From Eledone cirrhosa (taxonomy: Eukaryota), in contig OZ024749.1 of assembly GCA_964016885.1 (NCBI GenBank), forward strand, positions 17,112,001-17,176,000: 64,000 nucleotides of DNA, given 5' to 3'. The notes below the pieces were generated by a model. The model was not told the DNA's origin. It saw only the letters and a program-made list of their open reading frames with translations, and made no database searches. Below are positions 3,135 through 40,280 of the stretch, piece after piece. Every line of letters starts with the position of its first letter. Position 1 is the stretch's first letter. The position numbers were made by a program, and so were the translations under genes.

Positions 3135-3478
3135 CACTCATACACACACATTTACATGCGCACATATGTATTTTTATACTCACATACAAACACACAAACA
3201 TACATACACACTTACATACACATACATACATCCACGCTTACAAATACAAATAATTATTGGGGGGGGGGGGATTAAAATTATTAGTGGGAAATAGTAAATA
3301 TATAGGTTTCAAGGAACATAGAATATTAATCTGCAGTTAAATCATTATATGTGTTTACATAGTACACATATATATATACATGCGCACATATATATTTTTA
3401 TACACACATACAAACACACAAACATACATACACACTTACATACACATCCATACATCCACGCTTACAAATACAAATAAA

Positions 3479-5413
3479 TTAACTGAACCTTTGGCATTGA
3501 AAAGACCACACTTCAACCTGAAAGATCATAAATCAAACTTTAACTCAAATCCTTCTATAAGACTTATATGTCCCTCCAAATCAGATATTGGAATAATTAG
3601 CAAAAAGATTTTGGATAGAGTCATCCCACAAATAAGAAAACATGTTAATTTACCACTCTGGGAAAACACTTCCCAGGTAATTAACTGGTTTAATAATATT
3701 AGATGTAAATCTTCTGCTTCATTTCTACAATTTGATATAGATAATTACTATTCTTCTATATCACCTATACTCCTGAACAAAGCTTTGATATTTGCTAAAA
3801 ATAGATCTAACTTAACTTTGGATGACATTAATATTATTACACATGCTAGACTAACACTTATTGAATTTCAGAATGAATACTGGACCAGAAACACATATAG
3901 TAATATATTTGATATTACTATGGGTTCAAGCGATTCTGCCCAAATTACTGATCTTGTGGGCCTCTTTCTTCTTTTTAACATAAATGCTTCCTTTCCCCAC
4001 CTTAAAGGTGGTTTATATCGTGATGACTGTCTTCTTCTTTCCAACAACCTTAGCCTCTCAGGAATAGAAAAAAACAAAAAGCTTATTAGAACTTTCCTTA
4101 AAGACTATTATAGTCTTGATATTACTTTTGAAAACACAAGTAAAGTAGTTAATTTCCTAGATATAACTTTAGACTTGGCTACGGGTATCTACCAACCTTA
4201 CCATAAACCCAACCAAAACTTACACTACATACACTCACAATCTAATCACCCTAAATCTATCCTTAAAAACCTTGCATATAATATATCACTTAGCATTTCT
4301 AACCTTTCGTCTAACCAAGACTTCTATAACGAAGCTCTAGATAGAAGTGGCCACAAAAATAGATTGGAATATATACCTTCTACTAATAACACTATAAACA
4401 TACAACCTAATATTACCAACAAACACCAAATGAAAAGTACACACCTAAATGCCACTCACACTATACCCCAAAATACCAACATAAAACCAAATTTCTCTAA
4501 CTCCTCTAATATAAAGTATAGTAACTCTCAAAAAACTACTCATCATACAACTCTAATAAATGTTAATAATAAAACTCCTAATAAACAAGCTAAAAGACCT
4601 AAATCAATAAATCTAACTAAAAATGTGCGTGGTGAGGTCATTAACATTAATCCTCCTAGTAAACATCAGGATGCATCGTATAAAAACAATAAACAACATA
4701 GAAACCGTAATAGACGAGTTACTTGGTATAATGCTCCATTTAATTTACAAATTAAGGATAATATACCTGAAAAAAATTTTAATATCCTAGAGAAAAACTT
4801 CCCGCCAAAACACAAATACCATCAAATCTTAAATAGATCAACAGTTAAATTCTCATACTCAACAACCAAAAACATAAAACAAAATATAAGTGCCTATAAT
4901 GCATATAAATGTAAAAAAACCATAAGTATACCACCAATACATCAAACTAACCATAATATCTCCTCAAATACAGAATTAACGAAAGGTTGTAACTGTAGAA
5001 ACAAGGCAAACTGCCCATTAAAAGGAAATTGTCTTGTTAACAACATAGTTTATAAATGTAAAGTTAAAACTAAAGATTCTATTTGCTCATATATAGGAGC
5101 TACTTCTAACAATTTTAAGGTAAGGTTTAATACCCACAAACATAGTTTTAAAAATGCCGCACTGGCTAATACAACATCTCTAGCAGAAAAAATTAATAGT
5201 TATAGAAATAAGAATATAGAATATGATATGACCTGGAGTGTGCTCAAAAGAGCCACCCCTTATCAAAATAATAGAAATGAATGTAGATTGTGTTCCCAAG
5301 AACTATTTGAAATAATGAAATCTAAGGATATCCTATTAAATAAGCGACAAGAATTAATTATATCGTGTAATCATAAACTGAGAAAAACATTTAAATATTA
5401 TAAACCTAATTAA
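3479..5413 (+). CDS. Naiad PLE reverse transcriptase + GIY-YIG endonuclease (5'-truncated; the first ~33 aa of the predicted ORF derive from the inverted UTR)
   Basis: Motifs LKDHKSNF..RLICPSKSDIG, QFDIDNYYSSI, MGSSDSAQITDLVG, GLYRDD, CNCRNKANCPLKGNC, IVYKC..YIGAT..FKVRFNTH, CRLC..CNH. Confidence 0.9.
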   Translation, partial: LTEPLALKRPHFNLKDHKSNFNSNPSIRLICPSKSDIGIISKKILDRVIPQIRKHVNLPLWENTSQVINWFNNIRCKSSASFLQFDIDNYYSSISPILLNKALIFAKNRSNLTLDDINIITHARLTLIEFQNEYWTRNTYSNIFDITMGSSDSAQITDLVGLFLLFNINASFPHLKGGLYRDDCLLLSNNLSLSGIEKNKKLIRTFLKDYYSLDITFENTSKVVNFLDITLDLATGIYQPYHKPNQNLHYIHSQSNHPKSILKNLAYNISLSISNLSSNQDFYNEALDRSGHKNRLEYIPSTNNTINIQPNITNKHQMKSTHLNATHTIPQNTNIKPNFSNSSNIKYSNSQKTTHHTTLINVNNKTPNKQAKRPKSINLTKNVRGEVININPPSKHQDASYKNNKQHRNRNRRVTWYNAPFNLQIKDNIPEKNFNILEKNFPPKHKYHQILNRSTVKFSYSTTKNIKQNISAYNAYKCKKTISIPPIHQTNHNISSNTELTKGCNCRNKANCPLKGNCLVNNIVYKCKVKTKDSICSYIGATSNNFKVRFNTHKHSFKNAALANTTSLAEKINSYRNKNIEYDMTWSVLKRATPYQNNRNECRLCSQELFEIMKSKDILLNKRQELIISCNHKLRKTFKYYKPN

Positions 5414-11694: not shown

Positions 11695-13383
11695 CACACA
11701 TACATATACACAGACACATATACACACTCACATATATATATGTGTGTGTGCGCACATACACATATATACACACACACACACAAATACACATAAACACATA
11801 CATATGCATACGTGCACACACACACATATATATCACATAGATACGAAGATAAACATATAAATAGAGAGACATACATATATATACAACACACATACACACA
11901 CATACATACACACGCATATACATATACATATATATATACATACATATATTCCTACATATACATGCATACACATATATACACATATATACACATACATACA
12001 CATATACGTACACACATTCACATACACATACATATATAATGCATATATACACATATATACATACATATACACACTCATATATACACACGCAATCTTACAT
12101 TCATATTTGCATGCGCATATATGTATTTTTATATTTAGATATAAATACCCAAACCTATATAGACACCTACCTACATATATATTCATACATAGACGCTTAC
12201 AAATATAGATGATAATAGTATGGGGGAAAGGGGGGGTTTGGAGAAGGGGATCAAAGTAAATATATGTTTCAAGAAACATAGAATATTTTCCATATCTTTA
12301 TCCAATGTATGTTCTTACATATTTTCAGTGCTAGGAAATACGACAAACAAGAACTAAGGCAAAATCTATGCATCTCAAAATAAATAAGTATACCATTAAT
12401 CATATGTTAACTAAACAAAAGATAGTCAACATATTGATTTCTAAGGTGTAAATTAGTTAGGTTTATAATATTTGAAGCAGAATTTTGAAGTCAAACAGTA
12501 GTAGATTATTAATTACAGTATAACTAAATTAAAGTTAATAACGTTATGGTATCAATATTAGGAAATGAATTTAGTAATAGGGAAAAAAAGCCAAATAAAA
12601 ATAAAATAAAGTATTACATCGGTAGTAGAATATAAACTATATGTTAACTAAATTAAAAATTATATATTTATTTCAATAGTATATGTTAATTAGGTATACA
12701 ATACATAAAGCAGATACTGTATTTCATCAATAGCATAATATAATTATATGCAAATAGAAATCAAAATTAATACGCATACATATACATATACATACACATA
12801 CACATATACATACATATACACATATATATATATATATATATATACATATATACACATATATACATACATGCAGATACACATACACACACACACATACACA
12901 TACACATATACATATACATATCTTTTTCAAAAAATTGCATAGAATATATTAACTAGGTATATATCCAAAACACATCCCATTCTATGATTACATGACATTC
13001 TGCAATTCGTCTGTATAAGGATACTAATTTTAAGCAAATTAAAATTAAAATTTTTAGGTTGATTAAAACTAAAACCAAATAATAAATATATTTCTAAAAT
13101 GTATATTAATTAGGTCTATAATACTAAAAATTATTTCTCTGTCATTGGATACACGATATTATTTTGTTATATTTTATCTGTAAAAGAGTTATAATAAAAG
13201 GTTTAAATAAATTAAAATTAATCTATAAATTAAATTACTAAGTATATATTAGTAATATTTAAAGGTTTTTCACAATTTATGATTACATAATATTTTATAT
13301 TCTCATCTGTAATAAAATATTAATTAAATTAAATTTATAGGTTAACTAACATTTAAATTAAATTAATTTCTAAAATAATGTTA

Positions 13384-14459
13384 TTAATTAGGTTTATAAT
13401 ATTTAAATGTTTTTTTTAGTTTATGATTACACGATATAATTAATTCCTGTCGTTTATTTAATAAGATATCCTTAGACTTCATTATTTCAAATAGTTCTTG
13501 GGAACATAATTTACATTCATTTCTATTATTTTGATAAGGGGTGGCTCTTTTGAGCACACTCCAGGTCAAATCATATTTTATATTCTTATTTTTATAACTA
13601 TTGATTTTTTCTGCTAGAGATGTTGTATTAGCCAGTGCGGCATTTTTAAAACTATGCTTGTGGGTATTAAACCTTGTCTTAAAATTGTTAGAGGTAGCTC
13701 CTATATATGAGCAAATAGAATCTTTAGTTTTAACATTACATTTATAGACTATGTTGTTAACAAGACAATTCCCTTTTAATGGGCAGTTTGCTTTGTTTCT
13801 ACAGTTACATCCTTTCGTTAATTCTGTATTTGAGGAGATATTATGGTTAATTTGATGTACTGGTGGTATACTTATGGTTTTCTTACATTTATATGCATTA
13901 TATGCACTTATATTTTGTTTTATGTTATTTGTTGTAGAGTATGAGAATTTAACTGTAGACCTATTTAAGATTTGATGGTATTTGTGGTTTGGCGGGAAGT
14001 TTTTCTCAAGGATATAAAAAAATTTTTTAGCAATATTATCCTTAACTTGTAAATTAAAAGGAGCATTATACCAAGTAACCCGTCTATTACGGTTTCTATG
14101 TTGTTTATTATTTTTATTATTTTTATAGGTTGTATCGTGATTTTTACTAGGAGGATTAATGTTAATGATCTCACCACAACTATTTTTAGTTATATTTGTA
14201 GATTTAGGTGTTTTATCTTTTTTATTTGGAGTTTTATTATTAATATTTATTATAGTTGTATGATGAGTAGTTTTTTGAGGGTTACTATACTTTATATTAG
14301 AAGATTTAGTATTTTGGGGTATAGTGTGGGTGGCATTTAGGTGTGTACTTTTCATTTGGTGTTTGTTGGTAATATTATGTTGTATGCTTTCAGTATTTTT
14401 AGTAGAAGGTATATACTCTAATCTATTTTTGTGGCCACTTCTATCTAGAGCTTCGTTAT
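13384..14459 (-). pseudogene. Naiad linker + GIY-YIG C-terminal fragment (left arm)
   Basis: YNEALDRSG...CNCRNKANCPL...YIGAT...YYKPN, close to the 3479 ORF. Confidence 0.9.
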
Positions 14460-15535
14460 ATAACGAAGCTCTAGATAGAAGTGGCCACAAAAATAGATTA
14501 GAGTATATACCTTCTACTAAAAATACTGAAAGCATACAACATAATATTACCAACAAACACCAAATGAAAAGTACACACCTAAATGCCACCCACACTATAC
14601 CCCAAAATACTAAATCTTCTAATATAAAGTATAGTAACCCTCAAAAAACTACTCATCATACAACTATAATAAATATTAATAATAAAACTCCAAATAAAAA
14701 AGATAAAACACCTAAATCTACAAATATAACTAAAAATAGTTGTGGTGAGATCATTAACATTAATCCTCCTAGTAAAAATCACGATACAACCTATAAAAAT
14801 AATAAAAATAATAAACAACATAGAAACCGTAATAGACGGGTTACTTGGTAAAATGCTCCTTTTAATTTACAAGTTAAGGATAATATTGCTAAAAAATTTT
14901 TTTATATCCTTGAGAAAAACTTCCCGCCAAACCACAAATACCATCAAATCTTAAATAGGTCTACAGTTAAATTCTCATACTCTACAACAAATAACATAAA
15001 ACAAAATATAAGTGCATATAATGCATATAAATGTAAGAAAACCATAAGTATACCACCAGTACATCAAATTAACCATAATATCTCCTCAAATACAGAATTA
15101 ACGAAAGGATGTAACTGTAGAAACAAAGCAAACTGCCCATTAAAAGGGAATTGTCTTGTTAACAACATAGTCTATAAATGTAATGTTAAAACTAAAGATT
15201 CTATTTGCTCATATATAGGAGCTACCTCTAACAATTTTAAGACAAGGTTTAATACCCACAAGCATAGTTTTAAAAATGCCGCACTGGCTAATACAACATC
15301 TCTAGCAGAAAAAATCAATAGTTATAAAAATAAGAATATAAAATATGATTTGACCTGGAGTGTGCTCAAAAGAGCCACCCCTTATCAAAATAATAGAAAT
15401 GAATGTAGATTATGTTCCCAAGAACTATTTGAAATAATGAAGTCTAAGGATATCTTATTAAATAAACGACAGGAATTAATTATATCGTGTAATCATAAAC
15501 TAAAAAAAACATTTAAATATTATAAACCTAATTAA
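14460..15535 (+). pseudogene. Naiad linker + GIY-YIG C-terminal fragment (right arm, premature TAA at 14849-14851)
   Basis: Mirror of the left arm with a TAT>TAA change. Confidence 0.9.
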
Positions 15536-17224
15536 TAACATTATTTTAGAAATTAATTTAATTTAAATGTTAGTTAACCTATAAATTTAATTTAATTAAT
15601 ATTTTATTACAGATGAGAATATAAAATATTATGTAATCATAAATTGTGAAAAACCTTTAAATATTACTAATATATACTTAGTAATTTAATTTATAGATTA
15701 ATTTTAATTTATTTAAACCTTTTATTATAACTCTTTTACAGATAAAATATAACAAAATAATATCGTGTATCCAATGACAGAGAAATAATTTTTAGTATTA
15801 TAGACCTAATTAATATACATTTTAGAAATATATTTATTATTTGGTTTTAGTTTTAATCAACCTAAAAATTTTAATTTTAATTTGCTTAAAATTAGTATCC
15901 TTATACAGACGAATTGCAGAATGTCATGTAATCATAGAATGGGATGTGTTTTGGATATATACCTAGTTAATATATTCTATGCAATTTTTTGAAAAAGATA
16001 TGTATATGTATATGTGTATGTGTATGTGTGTGTGTGTATGTGTATCTGCATGTATGTATATATGTGTATATATGTATATATATATATATATATATATGTG
16101 TATATGTATGTATATGTGTATGTGTATGTATATGTATATGTATGCGTATTAATTTTGATTTCTATTTGCATATAATTATATTATGCTATTGATGAAATAC
16201 AGTATCTGCTTTATGTATTGTATACCTAATTAACATATACTATTGAAATAAATATATAATTTTTAATTTAGTTAACATATAGTTTATATTCTACTACCGA
16301 TGTAATACTTTATTTTATTTTTATTTGGCTTTTTTTCCCTATTACTAAATTCATTTCCTAATATTGATACCATAACGTTATTAACTTTAATTTAGTTATA
16401 CTGTAATTAATAATCTACTACTGTTTGACTTCAAAATTCTGCTTCAAATATTATAAACCTAACTAATTTACACCTTAGAAATCAATATGTTGACTATCTT
16501 TTGTTTAGTTAACATATGATTAATGGTATACTTATTTATTTTGAGATGCATAGATTTTGCCTTAGTTCTTGTTTGTCGTATTTCCTAGCACTGAAAATAT
16601 GTAAGAACATACATTGGATAAAGATATGGAAAATATTCTATGTTTCTTGAAACATATATTTACTTTGATCCCCTTCTCCAAACCCCCCCTTTCCCCCATA
16701 CTATTATCATCTATATTTGTAAGCGTCTATGTATGAATATATATGTAGGTAGGTGTCTATATAGGTTTGGGTATTTATATCTAAATATAAAAATACATAT
16801 ATGCGCATGCAAATATGAATGTAAGATTGCGTGTGTATATATGAGTGTGTATATGTATGTATATATGTGTATATATGCATTATATATGTATGTGTATGTG
16901 AATGTGTGTACGTATATGTGTATGTATGTGTATATATGTGTATATATGTGTATGCATGTATATGTAGGAATATATGTATGTATATATATATGTATATGTA
17001 TATGCGTGTGTATGTATGTGTGTGTATGTGTGTTGTATATATATGTATGTCTCTCTATTTATATGTTTATCTTCGTATCTATGTGATATATATGTGTGTG
17101 TGTGCACGTATGCATATGTATGTGTTTATGTGTATTTGTGTGTGTGTGTGTATATATGTGTATGTGCGCACACACACATATATATATGTGAGTGTGTATA
17201 TGTGTCTGTGTATATGTATGTGTG

Positions 17225-24879: not shown

Positions 24880-24947
<68 letters not shown>

Positions 24948-24962
24948 ATATTAATATAGATG

Positions 24963-25013
24963 AGATTCTACAGGACTAGAACTGTTTCATTCTTTAGAAA
25001 TCATCAGGAATCT
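24963..25013 (-). ncRNA. Type I HHR related to the retrozyme HHR
   Basis: AGATTC CTGATGA TTTCTAAAGAAT GAAA CAG-TTCTAGTC-CTG TA GAATCT. Confidence 0.85.
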
Positions 25014-25077
25014 GGGTATCAAAAAGTAAGTATGGTATTTATAGGTCTCTACAAGTATATATATATATATATATATG

Positions 25078-26377: not shown

Positions 26378-26528
26378 AACGTTTGTATATGTATAATAAA
26401 GCCAAAACAATGCAGGTATGGACATAGAATAAAGAATGCAAATGCAAAAGATATTGTTGACAATTAGTCTTTTACCTTAGATTTATTTAAATGTCCTTAA
26501 TTTTCGAGATAATATCTCTTCTTCAGAG

Positions 26529-28043
26529 AAATAGCAGACTGCCCACTTTCTACCACCTCATCAAGACCCACAAGAATAGTACTAAGACGCAAATAAGACC
26601 CATCGTCTCTAGCATAGAAGGACCCCTATACAAAATTTCTTGGCTCCTCTCCCAGGTCCTCAAGCCTTTACTCTCCACCTTTCCCGGGCATGTCAGTAGC
26701 TCCGACGAAGTTATATGTAGACTACACCAACTCCAGCGAGAACAACTTAAACTAAATAAATACGCCTTTAGCCTCGACGTTATCTCCCTCTACACTACAG
26801 TCCCCGCTCATCCCGCTGTCGATTTATTGACGGACTGCGTGGTCGCAGAGGACATCCACTGCTACGGCCTCCACCCGACGGACATACACCAGCTTTTGTC
26901 CTTCACAGTAAACAATACGTACTTCACCTTCCACTACCACACATACAGACAACAGGATTACCCATGGGATCCAGCCTATCGGGCCTGCTGGCCATCACCT
27001 ACATGAACCAGCTAGAATGCCGAGCCCTCAACACCTGCCATTCCCATACCTTCTTCACCCGATATGTAGATGACATACTCATCCTTACATCATCCCGTGA
27101 GGAGGCAGATAAAATATACACAACATTTTCCAGCATGGACGCCAGTATAAAGTTCAGCATGGAACACCCCGATGACCGCGGATCCCTATCCCTACTGGAC
27201 TTCCAACTCAGGGTAACAGAGGAAGGCAACATCCACACCTGCTTCTATAAAAAAGCCGCCAGCAGGGACCTGTTCGTACATTTCAGATCGGCCCTCCCAC
27301 TCGGTGCCAAGTTCGGATACATAAGGAACGAACTGGCACGTATCCGGAACAAATGCACCGACGCTAAAGACCGAGACACACACACCACACATTTCCTGGA
27401 AGTACTCAAACTGAACGGATACACGACATCCACCACAAACCGCGCCAGAAAGAACAGAGGACACCACACCCGAGGCACTAACACTTGCTTCCTGAAGCTC
27501 CCACACACAAACCGCGCCAGAAAGAACAGAGGACACCACACCCGAGGCACTAACACTTGCTTCCTGAAGCTCCCACACTTCAATGAAGAAACAACAACAG
27601 CCATCTGCAGAGCTATCAGACGAGAGGGACTAGATATCCAACTGGCCCACTCAGGTCCTTCTCTACGCGGACAGCTAACCAAAAGACACTCCACCAGACA
27701 TGACAAATGCTGCAGACTAGCCAGCTGCCCCATCAACGACACAGACGTATGCCACCAGGCTTACGTCGTATACAGACTAGAGTGTGACAAATGCAACAAC
27801 TTCTACGTAGGTAGCACCACCAGACCACTCCACATAAGAATAAAAGAACACCTCAATACTAACGCTTCCTCATTTAAGAAACACCTAGTTAAATGCAAAA
27901 ACACCGACAAAACCGTAACAGTTAGGATAGAAACTAAGGAAAGAAACCTCGGCAATCTTAGAATTAAGGAAGCACTAATTATAGCTAAAACACAACCACC
28001 AATCAATAATAGACTAGAACTCAACACCCAATTTAAAACTTGA
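26529..28043 (+). pseudogene. PLE RT + GIY-YIG (frameshift near 26955; 72-nt in-frame duplication)
   Basis: LIKTHK, IRPIVS, SLDVISLYTTVP, MGSSLSG, RYVDD, VVYRLECDKCNNFYVGSTTRPLHIRIKEH. Confidence 0.92.
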
Positions 28044-28453
28044 TAGAGCTTCTTGCCCCATATTTACACCCCCCCCCCCTACACACACACACGCACGCAT
28101 GCACGCACACACACACGCTTACACCTCCACTTATTCTCTCTCACACATACACACACAAAACCAGTTCTAACACCAGATAACACCTATCCCCCACATTTAC
28201 GAATAGACATATCTTCTCACACTCACACACACACACTCACATACTTACACCTTCATGCACTCTCCCACACACTTAAACAGGCATGTATAAAAAAAAACAA
28301 AAAAAACAAAAACGAACCCATTTTAAAGGGAGACTAGTCTTTATCCACCTAATTTTAACTCTTTGACATTAGAGATAGAACAGATACTCTATACCATTTC
28401 CTGTCAGCATGACTTGGCAAGCTATTTAGAACACTGGTTTGAGAGCTTTATTT

Positions 28454-28490
28454 CCCTCTGAAGAAGAGATATTATCTCGAAAATTAAGGA
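28454..28490 (+). ncRNA. Minimal HHR-like motif in the pLTR (also at 26495-26528 -, 44157-44192 -, 44286-44321 +)
   Basis: CCT CTGAAGA AGAGATATTATCTC GAAA AT TA AGG; stems I and III are very short. Confidence 0.55.
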
Positions 28491-28671
28491 CATTTAAATA
28501 AATCTAAGGTAAAAGACTAATTGTCAACAATATCTTTTGCATTTGCATTCTTTATTCTATGTCCATATCTGCATTGTTTTGGCTTTATTATACATATACA
28601 AACGTTTATACCTCATTACACAATGCTTCAAGTGAACTATAACCTCCTCCTTTCATATATATATATGTATG

Positions 28672-28871: not shown

Positions 28872-28914
<43 letters not shown>

Positions 28915-29039
28915 GTGAATATAGACATAGAATATTCGAAAATATTCTGTATGTTTATAATAAACATTTTGAAGACCTAATCGCTATAGAATAGAATACG
29001 TCACGTATTACAATTAGATTCTCGATAAAAGCAAGGGAA

Positions 29040-29082
29040 GTAATCTACGCGTTTCATTCTTGTTAGAAATCTTCAGGACTAC
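29040..29082 (-). ncRNA. Type I HHR, first of 10 complete minus-strand copies (one per monomer)
   Basis: GTAGTC CTGAAGA TTTCTAACAAGAAT GAAA CGCG TA GATTAC. Confidence 0.88.
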
Positions 29083-32000
29083 ATATCCAGTGCTTTTATC
29101 GAGAATGACACAGCTAGAGACTTATAGAATACTTAGCTGTGTACAGGAACTGGTTTGAAAGAGCGGTTGCCGGTCCGGCAGAAATTAGAAATTGGAATAA
29201 ATGCTCTGAAATAGCGATATATATGTGAATATAGACATAGAATATTCGAAAATATTCTGTATGTTTATAATAAACAAACATTTTGAAGACCTAATCGCTA
29301 TAGAATAGAATACGTCACGTATTACAATTAGATTCTCGATAAAAGCAAGGGAAGTAATCTACGCGTTTCATTCTTGTTAGAAATCTTCAGGACTACATAT
29401 CCAGTGCTTTTATCGAGAATGACACAGCTAGAGACTTATAGAATACTTAGCTGTGTACAGGAACTGGTTTGAAAGAGCGGTTGCCGGTCCGGCAGAAATT
29501 AGAAATTGGAATAAATGCTCTGAAATAGCGATATATATGTGAATATAGACATAGAATATTCGAAAATATTCTGTATGTTTATAATAAACAAACATTTTGA
29601 AGACCTAATCGCTATAGAATAGAATACGTCACGTATTACAATTAGATTCTCGATAAAAGCAAGGGAAGTAATCTACGCGTTTCATTCTTGTTAGAAATCT
29701 TCAGGACTACATATCCAGTGCTTTTATCGAGAATGACACAGCTAGAGACTTATAGAATACTTAGCTGTGTACAGGAACTGGTTTGAAAGAGCGGTTGCCG
29801 GTCCGGCAGAAATTAGAAATTGGAATAAATGCTCTGAAATAGCGATATATATGTGAATATAGACATAGAATATTCGAAAATATTCTGTATGTTTATAATA
29901 AACAAACATTTTGGAGACCTAATCGCTATAGAATAGAATACGTCACGTATTACAATTAGATTCTCGATAAAAGCAAGGGAAGTAATCTACGCGTTTCATT
30001 CTTGTTAGAAATCTTCAGGACTACATATCCAGTGCTTTTATCGAGAATGACACAGCTAGAGACTTATAGAATACTTAGCTGTGTACAGGAACTGGTTTGA
30101 AAGAGCGGTTGCCGGTCCGGCAGAAATTAGAAATTGGAATAAATGCTCTGAAATAGCGATATATATGTGAATATAGACATAGAATATTCGAAAATATTCT
30201 GTATGTTTATAATAAACATTTTGAAGACCTAATCGCTATAGAATAGAATACGTCACGTATTACAATTAGATTCTCGATAAAAGCAAGGGAAGTAATCTAC
30301 GCGTTTCATTCTTGTTAGAAATCTTCAGGACTACATATCCAGTGCTTTTATCGAGAATGACACAGCTAGAGACTTATAGAATACTTAGCTGTGTACAGGA
30401 ACTGGTTTGAAAGAGCGGTTGCCGGTCCGGCAGAAATTAGAAATTGGAATAAATGCTCTGAAATAGCGATATATATGTGAATATAGACATAGAATATTCG
30501 AAAATATTCTGTATGTTTATAATAAACATTTTGAAGACCTAATCGCTATAGAATAGAATACGTCACGTATTACAATTAGATTCTCGATAAAAGCAAGGGA
30601 AGTAATCTACGCGTTTCATTCTTGTTAGAAATCTTCAGGACTACATATCCAGTGCTTTTATCGAGAATGACACAGCTAGAGACTTATAGAATACTTAGCT
30701 GTGTACAGGAACTGGTTTGAAAGAGCGGTTGCCGGTCCGGCAGAAATTAGAAATTGGAATAAATGCTCTGAAATAGCGATATATATGTGAATATAGACAT
30801 AGAATATTCGAAAATATTCTGTATGTTTATAATAAACAAACATTTTGAAGACCTAATCGCTATAGAATAGAATACGTCACGTATTACAATTAGATTCTCG
30901 ATAAAAGCAAGGGAAGTAATCTACGCGTTTCATTCTTGTTAGAAATCTTCAGGACTACATATCCAGTGCTTTTATCGAGAATGACACAGCTAGAGACTTA
31001 TAGAATACTTAGCTGTGTACAGGAACTGGTTTGAAAGAGCGGTTGCCGGTCCGGCAGAAATTAGAAATTGGAATAAATGCTCTGAAATAGCGATATATAT
31101 GTGAATATAGACATAGAATATTCGAAAATATTCTGTATGTTTATAATAAACAAACATTTTGAAGACCTAATCGCTATAGAATAGAATACGTCACGTATTA
31201 CAATTAGATTCTCGATAAAAGCAAGGGAAGTAATCTACGCGTTTCATTCTTGTTAGAAATCTTCAGGACTACATATCCAGTGCTTTTATCGAGAATGACA
31301 CAGCTAGAGACTTATAGAATACTTAGCTGTGTACAGGAACTGGTTTGAAAGAGCGGTTGCCGGTCCGGCAGAAATTAGAAATTGGAATAAATGCTCTGAA
31401 ATAGCGATATATATGTGAATATAGACATAGAATATTCGAAAATATTCTGTATGTTTATAATAAACATTTTGAAGACCTAATCGCTATAGAATAGAATACG
31501 TCACGTATTACAATTAGATTCTCGATAAAAGCAAGGGAAGTAATCTACGCGTTTCATTCTTGTTAGAAATCTTCAGGACTACATATCCAGTGCTTTTATC
31601 GAGAATGACACAGCTAGAGACTTATAGAATACTTAGCTGTGTACAGGAACTGGTTTGAAAGAGCGGTTGCCGGTCCGGCAGAAATTAGAAATTGGAATAA
31701 ATGCTCTGAAATAGCGATATATATGTGAATATAGACATAGAATATTCGAAAATATTCTGTATGTTTATAATAAACAAACATTTTGAAGACCTAATCGCTA
31801 TAGAATAGAATACGTCACGTATTACAATTAGATTCTCGATAAAAGCAAGGGAAGTAATCTACGCGTTTCATTCTTGTTAGAAATCTTCAGGACTACATAT
31901 CCAGTGCTTTTATCGAGAATGACACAGCTAGAGACTTATAGAATACTTAGCTGTGTACAGGAACTGGTTTGAAAGAGCGGTTGCCGGTCCGGCAGAAATT

Positions 32001-32374
32001 AGAAATTGGAATAAATGCTCTGAAATAGCGATATATATGTGAATATAGACATAGAATATTCGAAAATATTCTGTATGTTTATAATAAACATTTTGAAGAC
32101 CTAATCGCTATAGAATAGAATACGTCACGTATTACAATTAGATTCTCGATAAAAGCAAGGGAAGTAATCTACGCGTTTCATTCTTGTTAGAAACATACAG
32201 AATATTTTCGAATATTCTATGTCTATATTCATATATATATCGCTATTTCAGAGCATTTATTCCAATTTCTAATTTCTGCCGGACCGGCAACCGCTCTTTC
32301 AAACCAGTTCCCGTACACAGCTAAGTATTCTATAAGTCTCTAGCTGTGTCATTCTCGATAAAAGCACTGGATAT

Positions 32375-32417
32375 GTAGTCCTGAAGATTTCTAACAAGAA
32401 TGAAACGCGTAGATTAC
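32375..32417 (+). ncRNA. Type I HHR (inverted arm, copy 1)
   Basis: Same motif read on the + strand. Confidence 0.88.
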
Positions 32418-32684
32418 TTCCCTTGCTTTTATCGAGAATCTAATTGTAATACGTGACGTATTCTATTCTATAGCGATTAGGTCTTCAAAATGTTTATTAT
32501 AAACATACAGAATATTTTCGAATATTCTATGTCTATATTCACATATATATCGCTATTTCAGAGCATTTATTCCAATTTTTAATTTCTGCCGGACCGGCAA
32601 CCGCTCTTTCAAACCAGTTCCTGTACACAGCTAAGTATTCTATAAGTCTCTAGCTGTGTCATTCTCGATAAAAGCACTGGATAT

Positions 32685-32727
32685 GTAGTCCTGAAGATTT
32701 CTAACAAGAATGAAACGCGTAGATTAC
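32685..32727 (+). ncRNA. Type I HHR (inverted arm, copy 2)
   Basis: Same motif read on the + strand. Confidence 0.88.
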
Positions 32728-32897
32728 TTCCCTTGCTTTTATCGAGAATCTAATTGTAATACGTGACGTATTCTATTCTATAGCGATTAGGTCTTCAAAA
32801 TGTTTATTATAAACATACAGAATATTTTCGAATATTCTATGTCTATATTCACATATATATCGCTATTTCAGAGCATTTATTCCAATATATATATATG

Positions 32898-35954: not shown

Positions 35955-37013
35955 TTAATTGTAAGTTGTGATGTTGCTGTTCCACTCATATTTTCTATTT
36001 AATTTTGGTTGTAATTCTTTTATGTTTATTGCCTCTGTAATTTGTCTAAACATTGCGTCTTTTCTGTGTGTAGATTCTATTTTTATTTCTATGTTTTCTA
36101 ATTTACCCTTGTGTTCTATCTTAGCATGTTGGTAGAGTACAGATGATTCTTTATTATCTTGAAGGTCTCGCCAGTGTTCATTTATCCGTTCCCCTACACT
36201 ACGAGCTGCCTCACCTATGTACACTATATTTTTGTCTCTACATTATCCTTCAGTACATCTTATGCTATACACTACATTTCTAGTTTTACAGTTAATATGG
36301 GGGCTTATTTTACAGGTTACACATTTCTTATCTATACATGAGGGTCTTTGAAAAGGGTATGTCTTGCTAATAAGTGTTTTTACGGAGGTACCTGGTCTTT
36401 CTACTATCTTAATATTGAGTTTATGTTTATTTAGGGCCCTTCTAAATTTGTAAGCTAGTTCACCTCTAGGGGTTGTATCGATGAACATTACACTCTGGTA
36501 TTTATTGCTATCATACCATGAGTTTATTCTATTAGCCTTGTTCCTAGTTCTTTCTATTCTATTCCAAAATTTGCTCCTATACAAGGGGCAGGTCCCATTT
36601 ATGTCATTATTTACCATTTTTTCCCATTTGGTTCTGGCTCCTCTATACACTCTGATTCTATCTCTCTGATTGTAGCCAGAGAACTGCATACGGTGGATGA
36701 AGTGTTGTATGTGTCTCTCTAGTTCTTCGGGGTTGCACATGCGGGACACATTTCTCATCACCCTTACCAAATCCGCAATCAGTATGTTGATTTTGGTATG
36801 GTCCGAAATGGCCGAGTTTCGGTGGATCAGATGTTTGGAAGTCATGGGTTTGGCATAATGGGAATGGAGGATTTGTTTTTTGTTGTTAATGCTATCTAAC
36901 CAGAGCTCTGTGTCTAGTACAGGTAATCGATGGTTGGGGTGTTTACTTGGGTAGTCTATAGTAACTCTAATGCTCTGGTGGATGGAGTTTGCTATTTGCT
37001 GGATGCTTTCCAT
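35955..37013 (-). pseudogene. PLE RT thumb + GIY-YIG fragment (in-frame TAA at 36243-36245)
   Basis: IANSIHQSIRVTIDYPSKH..LPVLD, YAKPM, NVVYSIRC..YIGEAARSVGERINEH, RQITEA. Confidence 0.88.
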
Positions 37014-37029
37014 TGTGAAAGGAATCCCC

Positions 37030-37074
37030 AGTCACTGAAGAGGTCACAGAGTGTGTGACGAAAGAACTATGACT
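37030..37074 (+). ncRNA. Minimal type I HHR
   Basis: AGTCA CTGAAGA GGTCACAGAGTGTGTGAC GAAA GAAC TA TGACT. Confidence 0.82.
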
Positions 37075-38069: not shown

Positions 38070-38187
38070 TGTAAGTATGTTTTTGAAATGGTGCGCGAGT
38101 TTGAAATTAGAAATTGGAAATTATAAGCTTTCACCGTATTTTAGACTAAAAAAATTTCTAGCCTGATAGTGGGGTTTATAACCCTCG

Positions 38188-39060: not shown

Positions 39061-40280
39061 AACACTCTACTCTTTACTGATAATGACACTTGGGTAAAAA
39101 TATCTAACCCAGAGAACCCATTCGATGTCTCAATGGGCTCTTTTGACAGTGCTGATGTTTGTGAGTTAGTGGGCCTATTCCTCCTACACACACTTAAAGA
39201 AAAAATCCCTAACCATATTTTTGCGCTTTATCGCGACGATGGTCTCATACTTTCCCATACCACCATAAGCCATAACTTAGATAGATTAAGGAAAGACTTA
39301 ATAAAAACCTTTGCTAGTTTTAATCTTTAAATTACTATTGACACTAACCTTTCCAATGTTAATTTTCTAGATGTAAACCTAGATTTGCCTACTGCTTGTT
39401 ATAAACCATATCATAAACCTAATAAAAATTTAAAATATATAAATAAAGGCTCTTGCCATCCTCCCATAGTTTTTAAAAACCTTATCCCTAATATTAGCCG
39501 TAGGATCTCCACCCTCTCTTCCTCAGAAGCTATTTTCAATAAGGCATCCCCTACTATAATAAAGCCCTTCAAAATAGCGGATTTAGCGAACCGATTAAGT
39601 ACATACCCAACAATACTAACTCTTTTAAACATAATAATAGGAAAAGAAAAATAATCTGGTTCACCCCCCCCCCTACTCTATAGCAGTTAAAACTAATGTA
39701 GGCAAAAAATTCCTAGAGCTCTTAGATAAACATTTCCCTAGAACACATAGATACTATAAGATCTTCAATAGAAACTGTGTCAAAATTAGCTACTCCTGCG
39801 GTCCCCCTATTAAATCTTATATCATCAATAAGAAATCACCCAGAGAACATCAAAATTGCTCCTGTAGAGTCAAAAGTGAATTCCCATTACAAGGTAAATG
39901 CAACACCAAAGCCATTGTATATGCGGCTAAAGTGACAACCATTAGCAACAACCAACCAGCCACCAGTGAACGATATGTGGGTATGACACAAGAAAAATTC
40001 AAAACATGTTATTACTCACATGTCGCATCTTTCCGACATCCAGAAAAAAGATTCACAACAGCTCTGGCTAGCAGAATATGGGATTTGAAAGACCAAGGTA
40101 TCCAATATAAATTGGATTGGTCAATTTTGAACCAATCTAAAGAAGATGCACGCTCTGCATAAGTGAAAAATATTGGATTTTACAAAACCTTAAATCTCCA
40201 AAAACCTGCCTAAACACAAAAACAGAAATTTTCACCAGTTGCCCACACATGAAATCACACTTGCTTTCCAGCTCATATAA
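39061..40280 (+). pseudogene. Second Naiad family, decayed RT + GIY-YIG
   Basis: FDVSMGSFDSADVCELVG, LYRDDGL, PYHKPN, CSCRVK, YVGMT, CTLC; stops and frameshifts. Confidence 0.88.

What the first reader, a model, noticed from the sequence alone, without database searches (positions are those of the whole stretch)
28921..29230. The monomer folds like a branched viroid-type RNA
Seen within one unit: a perfect 16-bp helix ATTCTCGATAAAAGCA (29018-29033)/TGCTTTTATCGAGAAT (29091-29106) extending HHR stem I beyond an internal loop. There are also hairpins AGAATATT-CGAA-AATATTCT, ATGTTTAT-A-ATAAACAT, AATACGT-C-ACGTATT, ACACAGCTA..TAGCTGTGT and TGCCGG-T-CCGGCA. ATAGCGAT and ATCGCTAT can close a multibranch domain. 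Inference: selection acts on RNA structure rather than a passive satellite, and the stem I internal loop could dock on loop II as in extended HHRs.
Basis: partly seen in the sequence, partly recalled or inferred. Interest (0 to 1): 0.75.

Follow-up and report, generated by a model that had tools for sequence, protein, structure and literature searches.

The report
Retrozyme with conserved branched RNA fold
This 310-base repeat is one of about 10,000 copies of a small non-coding jumping element with a predicted self-cutting RNA motif, and a sister family only about 65% alike keeps most of the same base-paired arms through matched changes, so the RNA shape was likely selected while the element was copying itself; it is a good example of a known class (retrozymes), not a viroid.

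Summary
All helices are at the stated places. The unit's own family (9,667 motif matches) is too young to test covariation. I found an older sister family B, about 63-70% identical. It folds into the same branched layout (z -7.4). Of 27 pairs that changed, 12 changed on both sides and still pair; 12 of the 27 rest on a model-fitted alignment, and a blind alignment gave only 3 such pairs. G-U wobbles fit only the ribozyme strand. One helix is only partly kept, one was replaced by a different hairpin. Inserted copies decay neutrally, so selection acted on the source lineages, not on this array. Both families insert as two inverted arms ending at the same two sites in the fold, a Penelope-element signature. 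Verdict: a non-LTR retrozyme, a known kind; no RNA data. The scan reported this family's two-arm insertions before at other loci.

The parts
28907..32193 (-). Long arm: 10.5 tandem units of 310/314 bp, ribozyme on the minus strand; outer (3') end at monomer position 139, joined to (TA)n
32187..32886 (+). Short inverted arm: 2.3 units; outer end at monomer position 165, joined to (TA)n
28921..29230 (-). One monomer (the finding); predicted branched fold
29040..29082 (-). Type I hammerhead: 6-bp stem I, conserved core, 4-bp stem II (U-U at its base in this subfamily) with 6-nt loop, palindromic 6-nt stem III; predicted cut between 29046 and 29045
   Evidence: sequence; core letters invariant or 29 of 30 in family B
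29034..29090 (-). Stem I extension: docking-type internal loop (29083-29085 opposite 29039), 3-bp helix, 2x2 loop
   Evidence: compared with PMC2632901 passages
29018..29106 (-). 16-bp helix (29091-29106 with 29018-29033); in family B 9 pairs same, 4 compensatory, 1 wobble, 2 broken
28980..29218 (-). Multibranch-closing helix (29211-29218 with 28980-28987); inner 6 pairs invariant in family B, outer 2 shifted by a bulge; overlaps the first insertion end site (29217 equivalent)
29160..29207 (-).
29108..29142 (-). ACACAGCTA hairpin; inner 3 pairs kept in B (1 compensatory), outer 6 not conserved
28995..29009 (-). 6-bp hairpin; family B has a hairpin of different sequence at the same place
28929..28967 (-). 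Two hairpins outside the multibranch: 8-bp stem with UUCG loop on the ribozyme strand (1 compensatory, 1 wobble in B) and ATGTTT stem (6 pairs invariant in B)
26380..28656 (+). Neighbouring Penelope-like element (RT + GIY-YIG ORF 26772-28043; minimal hammerhead at 28452 and inverted at 26532; two ends differing by a tail of about 47 nt). Same insertion pattern; not shown to be the partner

Best explanation
The unit is a non-LTR retrozyme: a non-coding repeat with a type I hammerhead on the minus strand, whose transcript is predicted to cut itself into 310-nt monomers that likely circularise and are likely copied back into (TA)n sites by the reverse transcriptase and endonuclease of a Penelope-like element. 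Shown: the helices, the hammerhead motif, about 10,000 dispersed near-identical units, two inverted arms per insertion ending at two fixed sites 26-30 nt apart, the same layout and end sites in a sister family at about 65% identity, compensatory and wobble changes between the families, and neutral decay of inserted copies. Inferred: the fold was selected in the lineages that kept replicating, with the ribozyme arm serving processing and the most conserved arms, which surround the two end sites, serving as the loading and start signal for the borrowed enzyme. Inferred: the palindromic stem III of this family works only as a dimer, so multimers are cut and a monomer circle is spared. Untested: transcription, cutting, circles, docking, the partner element.
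For: Fold z -4.7 to -5.7; family B copy L104 z -7.4 sense, -5.6 antisense, same order of arms. A covariance model built from family A alone scores the best ribozyme-strand hit in all 30 B loci at 20.5-53 bits against at most 21.6 bits for a sequence-only model, and at most 21.6 bits on the opposite strand of those places. Sequence-only alignment: 6 compensatory of 15 changed pairs (p 2e-4 to 7e-3); with the model-fitted 16-bp helix and stem I, 12 of 27 (p <= 5e-5), 18 of 27 still paired. Alignment-free check: unbroken helix of 13 bp or more in 13 of 29 B copies against 1-2% expected. All six one-sided changes that keep a Watson-Crick or wobble pair involve G-U on the ribozyme strand. Ends: 15 of 21 family A loci have one arm at position 139 and the other at 165-172; 9 of 30 B loci show the homologous 138-141 and 164-172 pair; two adjacent start sites and a one-sided tail are the Penelope signature in PMC11167929 and PMC8557442. 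Arms run through many cut sites without scars and share locus-private variants, so the template was not a single cut linear monomer.
Against: A blind pairwise alignment mis-registers the 3' strand of the long helix and gives only 3 compensatory of 53 pairs (null 2.0, p=0.32), though 42 pairs kept against 34 +/- 3 (p=0.005). RNAalifold on the sequence-only alignment gave no covariation bonus (+0.13) and a different pairing in the ribozyme arm. The covariance model also scores unrelated long hairpins up to 36 bits, so part of its gain is generic. The comparison is one family against one family, so the changes are not many independent events. Outside the ribozyme arm only 4 of 13 changed pairs are compensatory, one of them in a helix that is otherwise broken. 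The arms around the end sites are nearly invariant, which fits structure but does not prove it. Stem II has low pair probability (0.15-0.18) in this subfamily. No autonomous element sharing the end region was found in the window. Higher-order repeats and the private 4-nt duplication show DNA-level turnover adds to array length.
Confidence: 0.82

Rival explanations
1. Same element and same selection on the fold, but the template for insertion is an uncut linear multimer; the fold serves cutting and enzyme loading and circles play no part in spreading.
For: PMC11167929 found unprocessed RNA to be the dominant substrate of a Penelope enzyme in vitro. Stem II is weak in this subfamily. Seamless multi-unit arms fit an uncut multimer as well as a circle.
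Against: Arms of 18 or more units and loci in which all units of both arms share private changes (16 of 16 in L068, 6 of 6 in L063) are simplest from one reiterated monomer. Circles are the main RNA form of other animal retrozymes (PMC7229834).
Confidence: 0.25
2. The inverted repeats are a by-product of DNA-level template switching that perfects palindromes in a passive satellite; only the hammerhead was ever selected.
For: Family A helices are almost all pure Watson-Crick and fold equally on both strands; the outer ACACAG helix is family-specific; inserted copies decay neutrally.
Against: Template switching makes perfect palindromes, not strand-specific G-U pairs, which are fixed or common in family B; long-range helices spanning 60-230 nt are kept; the copies are dispersed with fixed ends, not one satellite block.
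Confidence: 0.08
3. The unit is an integrated viroid-like RNA that replicates RNA-to-RNA.
For: Size, hammerhead and branched fold resemble hammerhead viroids; minus-polarity RNA was detected by RT-PCR for plant retrozymes (PMC4918200 passages).
Against: No hammerhead on the opposite strand, no Rfam match; family A is about 99% uniform, unlike an error-prone RNA replicon; all spread seen is explained by Penelope-type insertion.
Confidence: 0.04

Closest known systems
Metazoan non-LTR retrozymes (coral, mussel, axolotl; Cervera and de la Pena 2020, PMC7229834)
   Same: Tandem units of 170-400 nt, low GC, one type I hammerhead per unit, no ORF, predicted highly self-paired monomer, coexistence with Penelope-like elements. 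Weak palindromic stem III as in axolotl HHR_Amex1 and a U-U at the base of stem II as in HHR_Amex2.
   Different: Here insertions are two inverted arms with two fixed ends in (TA)n, and the non-ribozyme fold is backed by changes between two families; the parts read report predicted folds only. RNA is shown there and not here.
Penelope-like elements (PMC11167929, PMC8557442, PMC4209133)
   Same: Inverted 5'-truncated arm, one-sided tail from two adjacent internal start sites, (TA)n targets, type I hammerhead.
   Different: No protein; full stem I-II docking-type hammerhead rather than the minimal form; many units per arm.
Schistosoma mansoni Sm-alpha extended hammerhead (PMC2632901 passages)
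   Same: Internal loop in domain I facing a 6-nt apical loop II that ends in A; U at the 3' side and pyrimidine at the 5' side of the internal loop; family B often has the same four letters on the 5' side.
   Different: Family A has the shorter palindromic stem III and a U-U or A-U instead of G-C at the base of stem II; docking not tested.
Hammerhead viroids (Avsunviroidae; family features recalled)
   Same: Size, hammerhead, branched predicted fold.
   Different: Ribozyme on one strand only; genome-encoded and spread through DNA; no evidence of RNA-to-RNA replication or infectivity.

Membership tests
Non-LTR retrozyme | Tandem repeats of 150-450 bp, GC under 50%, no coding capacity | tested here: met
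   310/314 bp units, about 34% GC, no ORF of 120 aa inside the array
Non-LTR retrozyme | Type I hammerhead in each unit | tested here: met
   Motif at all 10 complete long-arm and both short-arm positions; stems covary in family B. Rfam did not detect it
Non-LTR retrozyme | Dispersed multi-copy family without LTR-type ends | tested here: met
   9,667 exact 19-mer matches; arms end directly in (TA)n. PBS and PPT were not searched for
Non-LTR retrozyme | Stable, highly paired monomer fold | tested here: met
   z -4.7 circular, 57% paired; conserved in family B
Non-LTR retrozyme | Transcription, self-cleavage and circular RNA | not testable with these tools
   No RNA holder listed; no assay
Penelope-mobilised element | Inverted 5'-truncated arm and one-sided tail from two start sites, AT-rich target | tested here: met
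   15 of 21 A loci and 9 of 30 B loci show both sites
Penelope-mobilised element | An identified autonomous partner sharing the start region | tested here: inconclusive
   No convincing match in the window or four other loci; genome-wide search not done
Extended (docking) type I hammerhead | 6-bp stem I, 4-bp stem II, internal-loop U and pyrimidine, loop II ending in A | tested here: met
   Present in both families against PMC2632901 and PMC4209133 passages
Extended (docking) type I hammerhead | Rate gain from loop-loop contact | not testable with these tools
   Needs kinetics
Hammerhead viroid | Ribozymes in both polarities | tested here: not met
   Hammerhead pattern only on one strand of each unit; Rfam none
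Hammerhead viroid | Autonomous RNA-to-RNA replication without a DNA phase | tested here: not met
   Thousands of genomic DNA insertions with retrotransposition ends; added RNA-level replication cannot be tested here

The most novel reading that the evidence does not exclude
The conserved arms outside the ribozyme are the recognition and start platform that a Penelope-type enzyme dimer uses on a circular RNA: both families start copying at the same two points of the fold. Stem III strength sets how far the enzyme can run: family A (dimer-only stem III, circle spared) leaves arms of up to 18 or more units, while family B (self-contained 3-bp stem III, circle re-cut) leaves arms of at most about 2.3 units. 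The pair of families would be a natural experiment on the untested circle-to-genome step of retrozymes.
Probability: 0.3. Interest if true: 0.68.

Novelty: new member of a known kind. Interest (0 to 1): 0.45.

Why it matters
Retrozyme circles are described as highly paired, but in the papers read that rests on folding predictions. Here two families give evolutionary support for most of a whole-monomer fold and place the two insertion ends at fixed points of it. That gives a concrete 310-nt substrate and specific helices to mutate in the existing in vitro Penelope assay, bearing on the open question of how animal retrozymes are mobilised. It does not reveal a new class of element or an animal viroid.

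Tried and rejected
Rfam found nothing at gathering score in the window and only (TA)n-driven microRNA look-alikes at E<=10 near the array. Covariation inside family A: 224 units, 34 distinct, 44 variable columns, mostly private; too young. No RNA holder listed; the runs laid are contigs of unrecorded kind and say nothing on expression. Blind pairwise alignment and RNAalifold did not recover the long helix in family B; both are reported under evidence against. In one search three pairs of the ATGTTT helix read as broken through a one-column offset; I left that helix out of the 15-pair tally (with them: 6 compensatory of 18), and left out two positions unpaired in the window copy; the two distal pairs scored compensatory were dropped because they lie in a G run. 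A second hammerhead at 25013 with a similar stem II belongs to another family and was single per arm in 12 of 12 loci; no wider similarity. A 17-nt match at 38103/38334 to the second end site (E 0.18) was absent from 14 of 14 sister loci checked: chance. A pattern for an intermediate subfamily returned 7 places, all one-letter variants of family A. RNA-editing marks: 2 of 6 locus-wide private changes are A to G; inconclusive. Sequence look-up in earlier findings gave nothing. First folding script timed out.

Full report
1. What is there. The finding is one unit of a 310/314-bp tandem array: 10.5 copies at 28907-32193 and 2.3 inverted copies at 32187-32886, between (TA)n runs. A type I hammerhead lies on the minus strand of each long-arm unit (29040-29082 in the first; predicted cut between 29046 and 29045). 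No hammerhead pattern occurs on the other strand of the units, and Rfam reports nothing.

2. Is the fold more than chance? Yes. Linear: z -5.72 (plus) and -4.99 (minus), 0 of 100 shuffles as good. Circular: z -4.7 on both strands (99 and 108 shuffles). The helices are almost pure Watson-Crick, so energy cannot tell the strand and cannot by itself show selection. In the circular ensemble of the ribozyme strand the 16-bp helix, stem I and four hairpins have pair probabilities mostly above 0.8, the multibranch closure about 0.6, the ATGTTT hairpin about 0.44 and stem II 0.15-0.18.

3. The family. The 3.0-Gb genome holds 9,667 exact matches to a 19-nt ribozyme motif; two core variants account for 3,721 and 2,156. 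I fetched 20 loci, picked by hand from the listed places and favouring multi-unit ones. With the window, 16 of 21 show two inverted arms with both outer ends visible; 15 of these have one arm ending at monomer position 139 and the other at 165-172, joined to (TA)n, while inner junctions vary. Three loci are single-armed and two unresolved. Two adjacent internal start sites and a one-sided tail are what PMC11167929 showed for a Penelope enzyme, and inverted 5'-truncated arms and (TA)n targets are described in PMC8557442. The Penelope-like element beside the array (RT and GIY-YIG domains) has the same build with a tail of about 47 nt. The ends are not at the ribozyme cut, and arms pass many cut sites without scars, so the template was a circle or an uncut multimer. 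Family A is too uniform for covariation.

4. The covariation test. A loose end led to an older sister family B: about 316-nt units, 94% identical among 30 copies (the best-scoring of 2,814 candidates), 63% identical to A by MAFFT and 70% by pairwise alignment. B copy L104 folds with z -7.4 (sense) and -5.6 (antisense) into the same order of arms: two outer hairpins, a third hairpin, the closing helix, and inside it the arm with the TGCCG hairpin, the central hairpin, the long helix with the ribozyme and a last hairpin. In a sequence-only alignment, 15 pairs of the A structure changed: 6 on both sides and still paired, 3 to or from G-U, 6 broken (4 in the outer ACACAG helix, 2 by a bulge). A covariance model built from A alone finds the ribozyme arm in all 30 B loci (20.5-53 bits; sequence-only model at most 21.6 bits). 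On its alignment the 16-bp helix has 9 pairs the same, 4 compensatory, 1 wobble, 2 broken, and stem I 2 compensatory, 2 one-sided, 1 same, 1 broken. Together: 12 compensatory and 18 kept of 27 changed pairs; under independent change p <= 5e-5 and p <= 4e-3; for the sequence-only set alone p = 2e-4 to 7e-3 for 6 of 15. An alignment-free check found an unbroken helix of 13 bp or more in 13 of 29 B copies (5 of 29 on the other strand) against 1-2% in simulations. The six one-sided changes that keep a pair all involve G-U on the ribozyme strand, which would be A-C mismatches on the other.

5. Results against. A blind pairwise alignment mis-registers the low-complexity 3' strand and yields 3 compensatory of 53 pairs (p=0.32), with 42 kept against 34 +/- 3 (p=0.005). 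RNAalifold gave no covariation bonus. The model rewards unrelated long hairpins up to 36 bits, and its alignment leans to the structure. This is one family-to-family comparison. Outside the ribozyme arm the direct signal is modest (4 compensatory of 13 changed pairs); much of the rest is invariance.

6. Where selection acts. Rare changes in B copies hit paired and unpaired columns alike (135 of 6,049 against 75 of 3,052 cells, p=0.51); core columns had fewer (2 of 330, 7.6 expected, p=0.02), a weak and unexplained hint. This array carries a 4-nt duplication in 6 of 10 intervals that no other locus has, and other loci show higher-order repeats. So inserted arrays drift and turn over as DNA; the fold was kept in the lineages that went on replicating.

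7. Mechanism. Most likely: read-through transcription of the ribozyme strand, cleavage to monomers, ligation to circles, and target-primed reverse transcription by a Penelope-type enzyme from two start points on both sides of a cut in (TA)n. B uses the homologous end sites (138-141 and 164-172 in 9 of 30 loci; 13 of 30 two-armed). In both families the first site sits at the foot of the closing helix and the second in the single strand inside the next arm, where sequence and helices are best conserved; I infer a loading and start signal. Family A's stem III is a 6-nt palindrome that pairs only between two copies, the arrangement PMC4209133 describes as allowing cutting of multimers but sparing monomer circles. 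B has a 3-bp stem III by sequence (not stable in isolation) and short arms: at most 739 bp in 30 loci, and no same-strand tandem pair among the first 100 of 156 exact motif matches. Age-related collapse or missed diverged neighbours could also explain this. The docking geometry matches the Schistosoma features in PMC2632901 in both families. All RNA steps are inferred; no RNA run was available.

8. Comparison and novelty. This is a non-LTR retrozyme as defined in PMC7229834; it fails two viroid tests. Five literature searches listed no paper that, by title or abstract start, tests covariation of a whole animal retrozyme monomer or ties arm ends to its fold; subscription papers are not covered. 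Seen: PMC7229834 parts 2-4 of 6; bioRxiv 10.64898/2026.07.22.740005 part 1 of 5, passages and Discussion; PMC11167929 parts 1-2 of 4; passages of PMC8557442, PMC6155905, PMC4918200, PMC2632901, PMC4209133. No supplements were read; those of PMC7229834 and the preprint (closed) may show similar folds or ends. Earlier notes of this scan report the two-arm Penelope signature for this same 310-nt family at other loci; I had reached that reading before the look-up and tested it here. The sister family and whole-monomer pair counts did not appear in the notes shown. Earlier notes call the genome octopus-like; I did not test that.

9. Verdict. Observation confirmed; interpretation partly supported. 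New member of a known kind with good evolutionary support for its fold. Interest 0.45.

Noticed in passing
G000, e.g. L093-L122 (C1:376617248-376617568 and others): Older sister retrozyme family B, about 316 nt, 2,814 first-look candidates, self-contained stem III, short two-armed insertions; contains an internal compensatory pair in stem I that separates subfamilies.
   Followed up: yes
window 24945-25060 (-); L031-L042: Another hammerhead family with a stem II nearly identical to this one and a long stem III; one per arm, ending about 20 nt downstream in (TA)n in several loci; 713 candidates. Parent element not identified.
   Followed up: partly
window 26380-28656; also 44194 (-)/44283 (+): Penelope-like element with minimal hammerhead and inverted terminal copy; an inverted pair of its terminal fragments recurs near 44.2 kb.
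   Followed up: partly
window 21879 (-), 22129 (-)/22145 (+), 35755 (-)/37029 (+), 52487 (-), 53252 (-)/53612 (+): Further hammerhead-like patterns, several as inverted pairs, probably ends of other Penelope-type families.
   Followed up: no
window 3341-5413, 13384-15535, 36243-37031, 39641-40162: More ORFs that read like Penelope-type RT/endonuclease; Pfam found no family in the three that were scanned.
   Followed up: partly
L063, L069, L072: A 311-nt subfamily with one extra C two bases after the cut site, which swaps a G-U in stem I for G-C plus a bulge.
   Followed up: partly
L078, L075, L018/L019/L023: Higher-order periodicity of variant units (periods 3, 6 and 4): local duplication or oligomeric templates.
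   Followed up: no
runs X2, X3, X6: Three runs with other organism labels each hold a single 340-nt contig (310 + 30, a closed loop in the assembly graph) at 99% identity; run kind is not on record, so tandem DNA and RNA circle cannot be told apart.
   Followed up: partly
window 12776-16143 and 10.4-18.5 kb: A large inverted duplication centred near 14.5 kb (mirror ORFs and mirror microsatellites).
   Followed up: no
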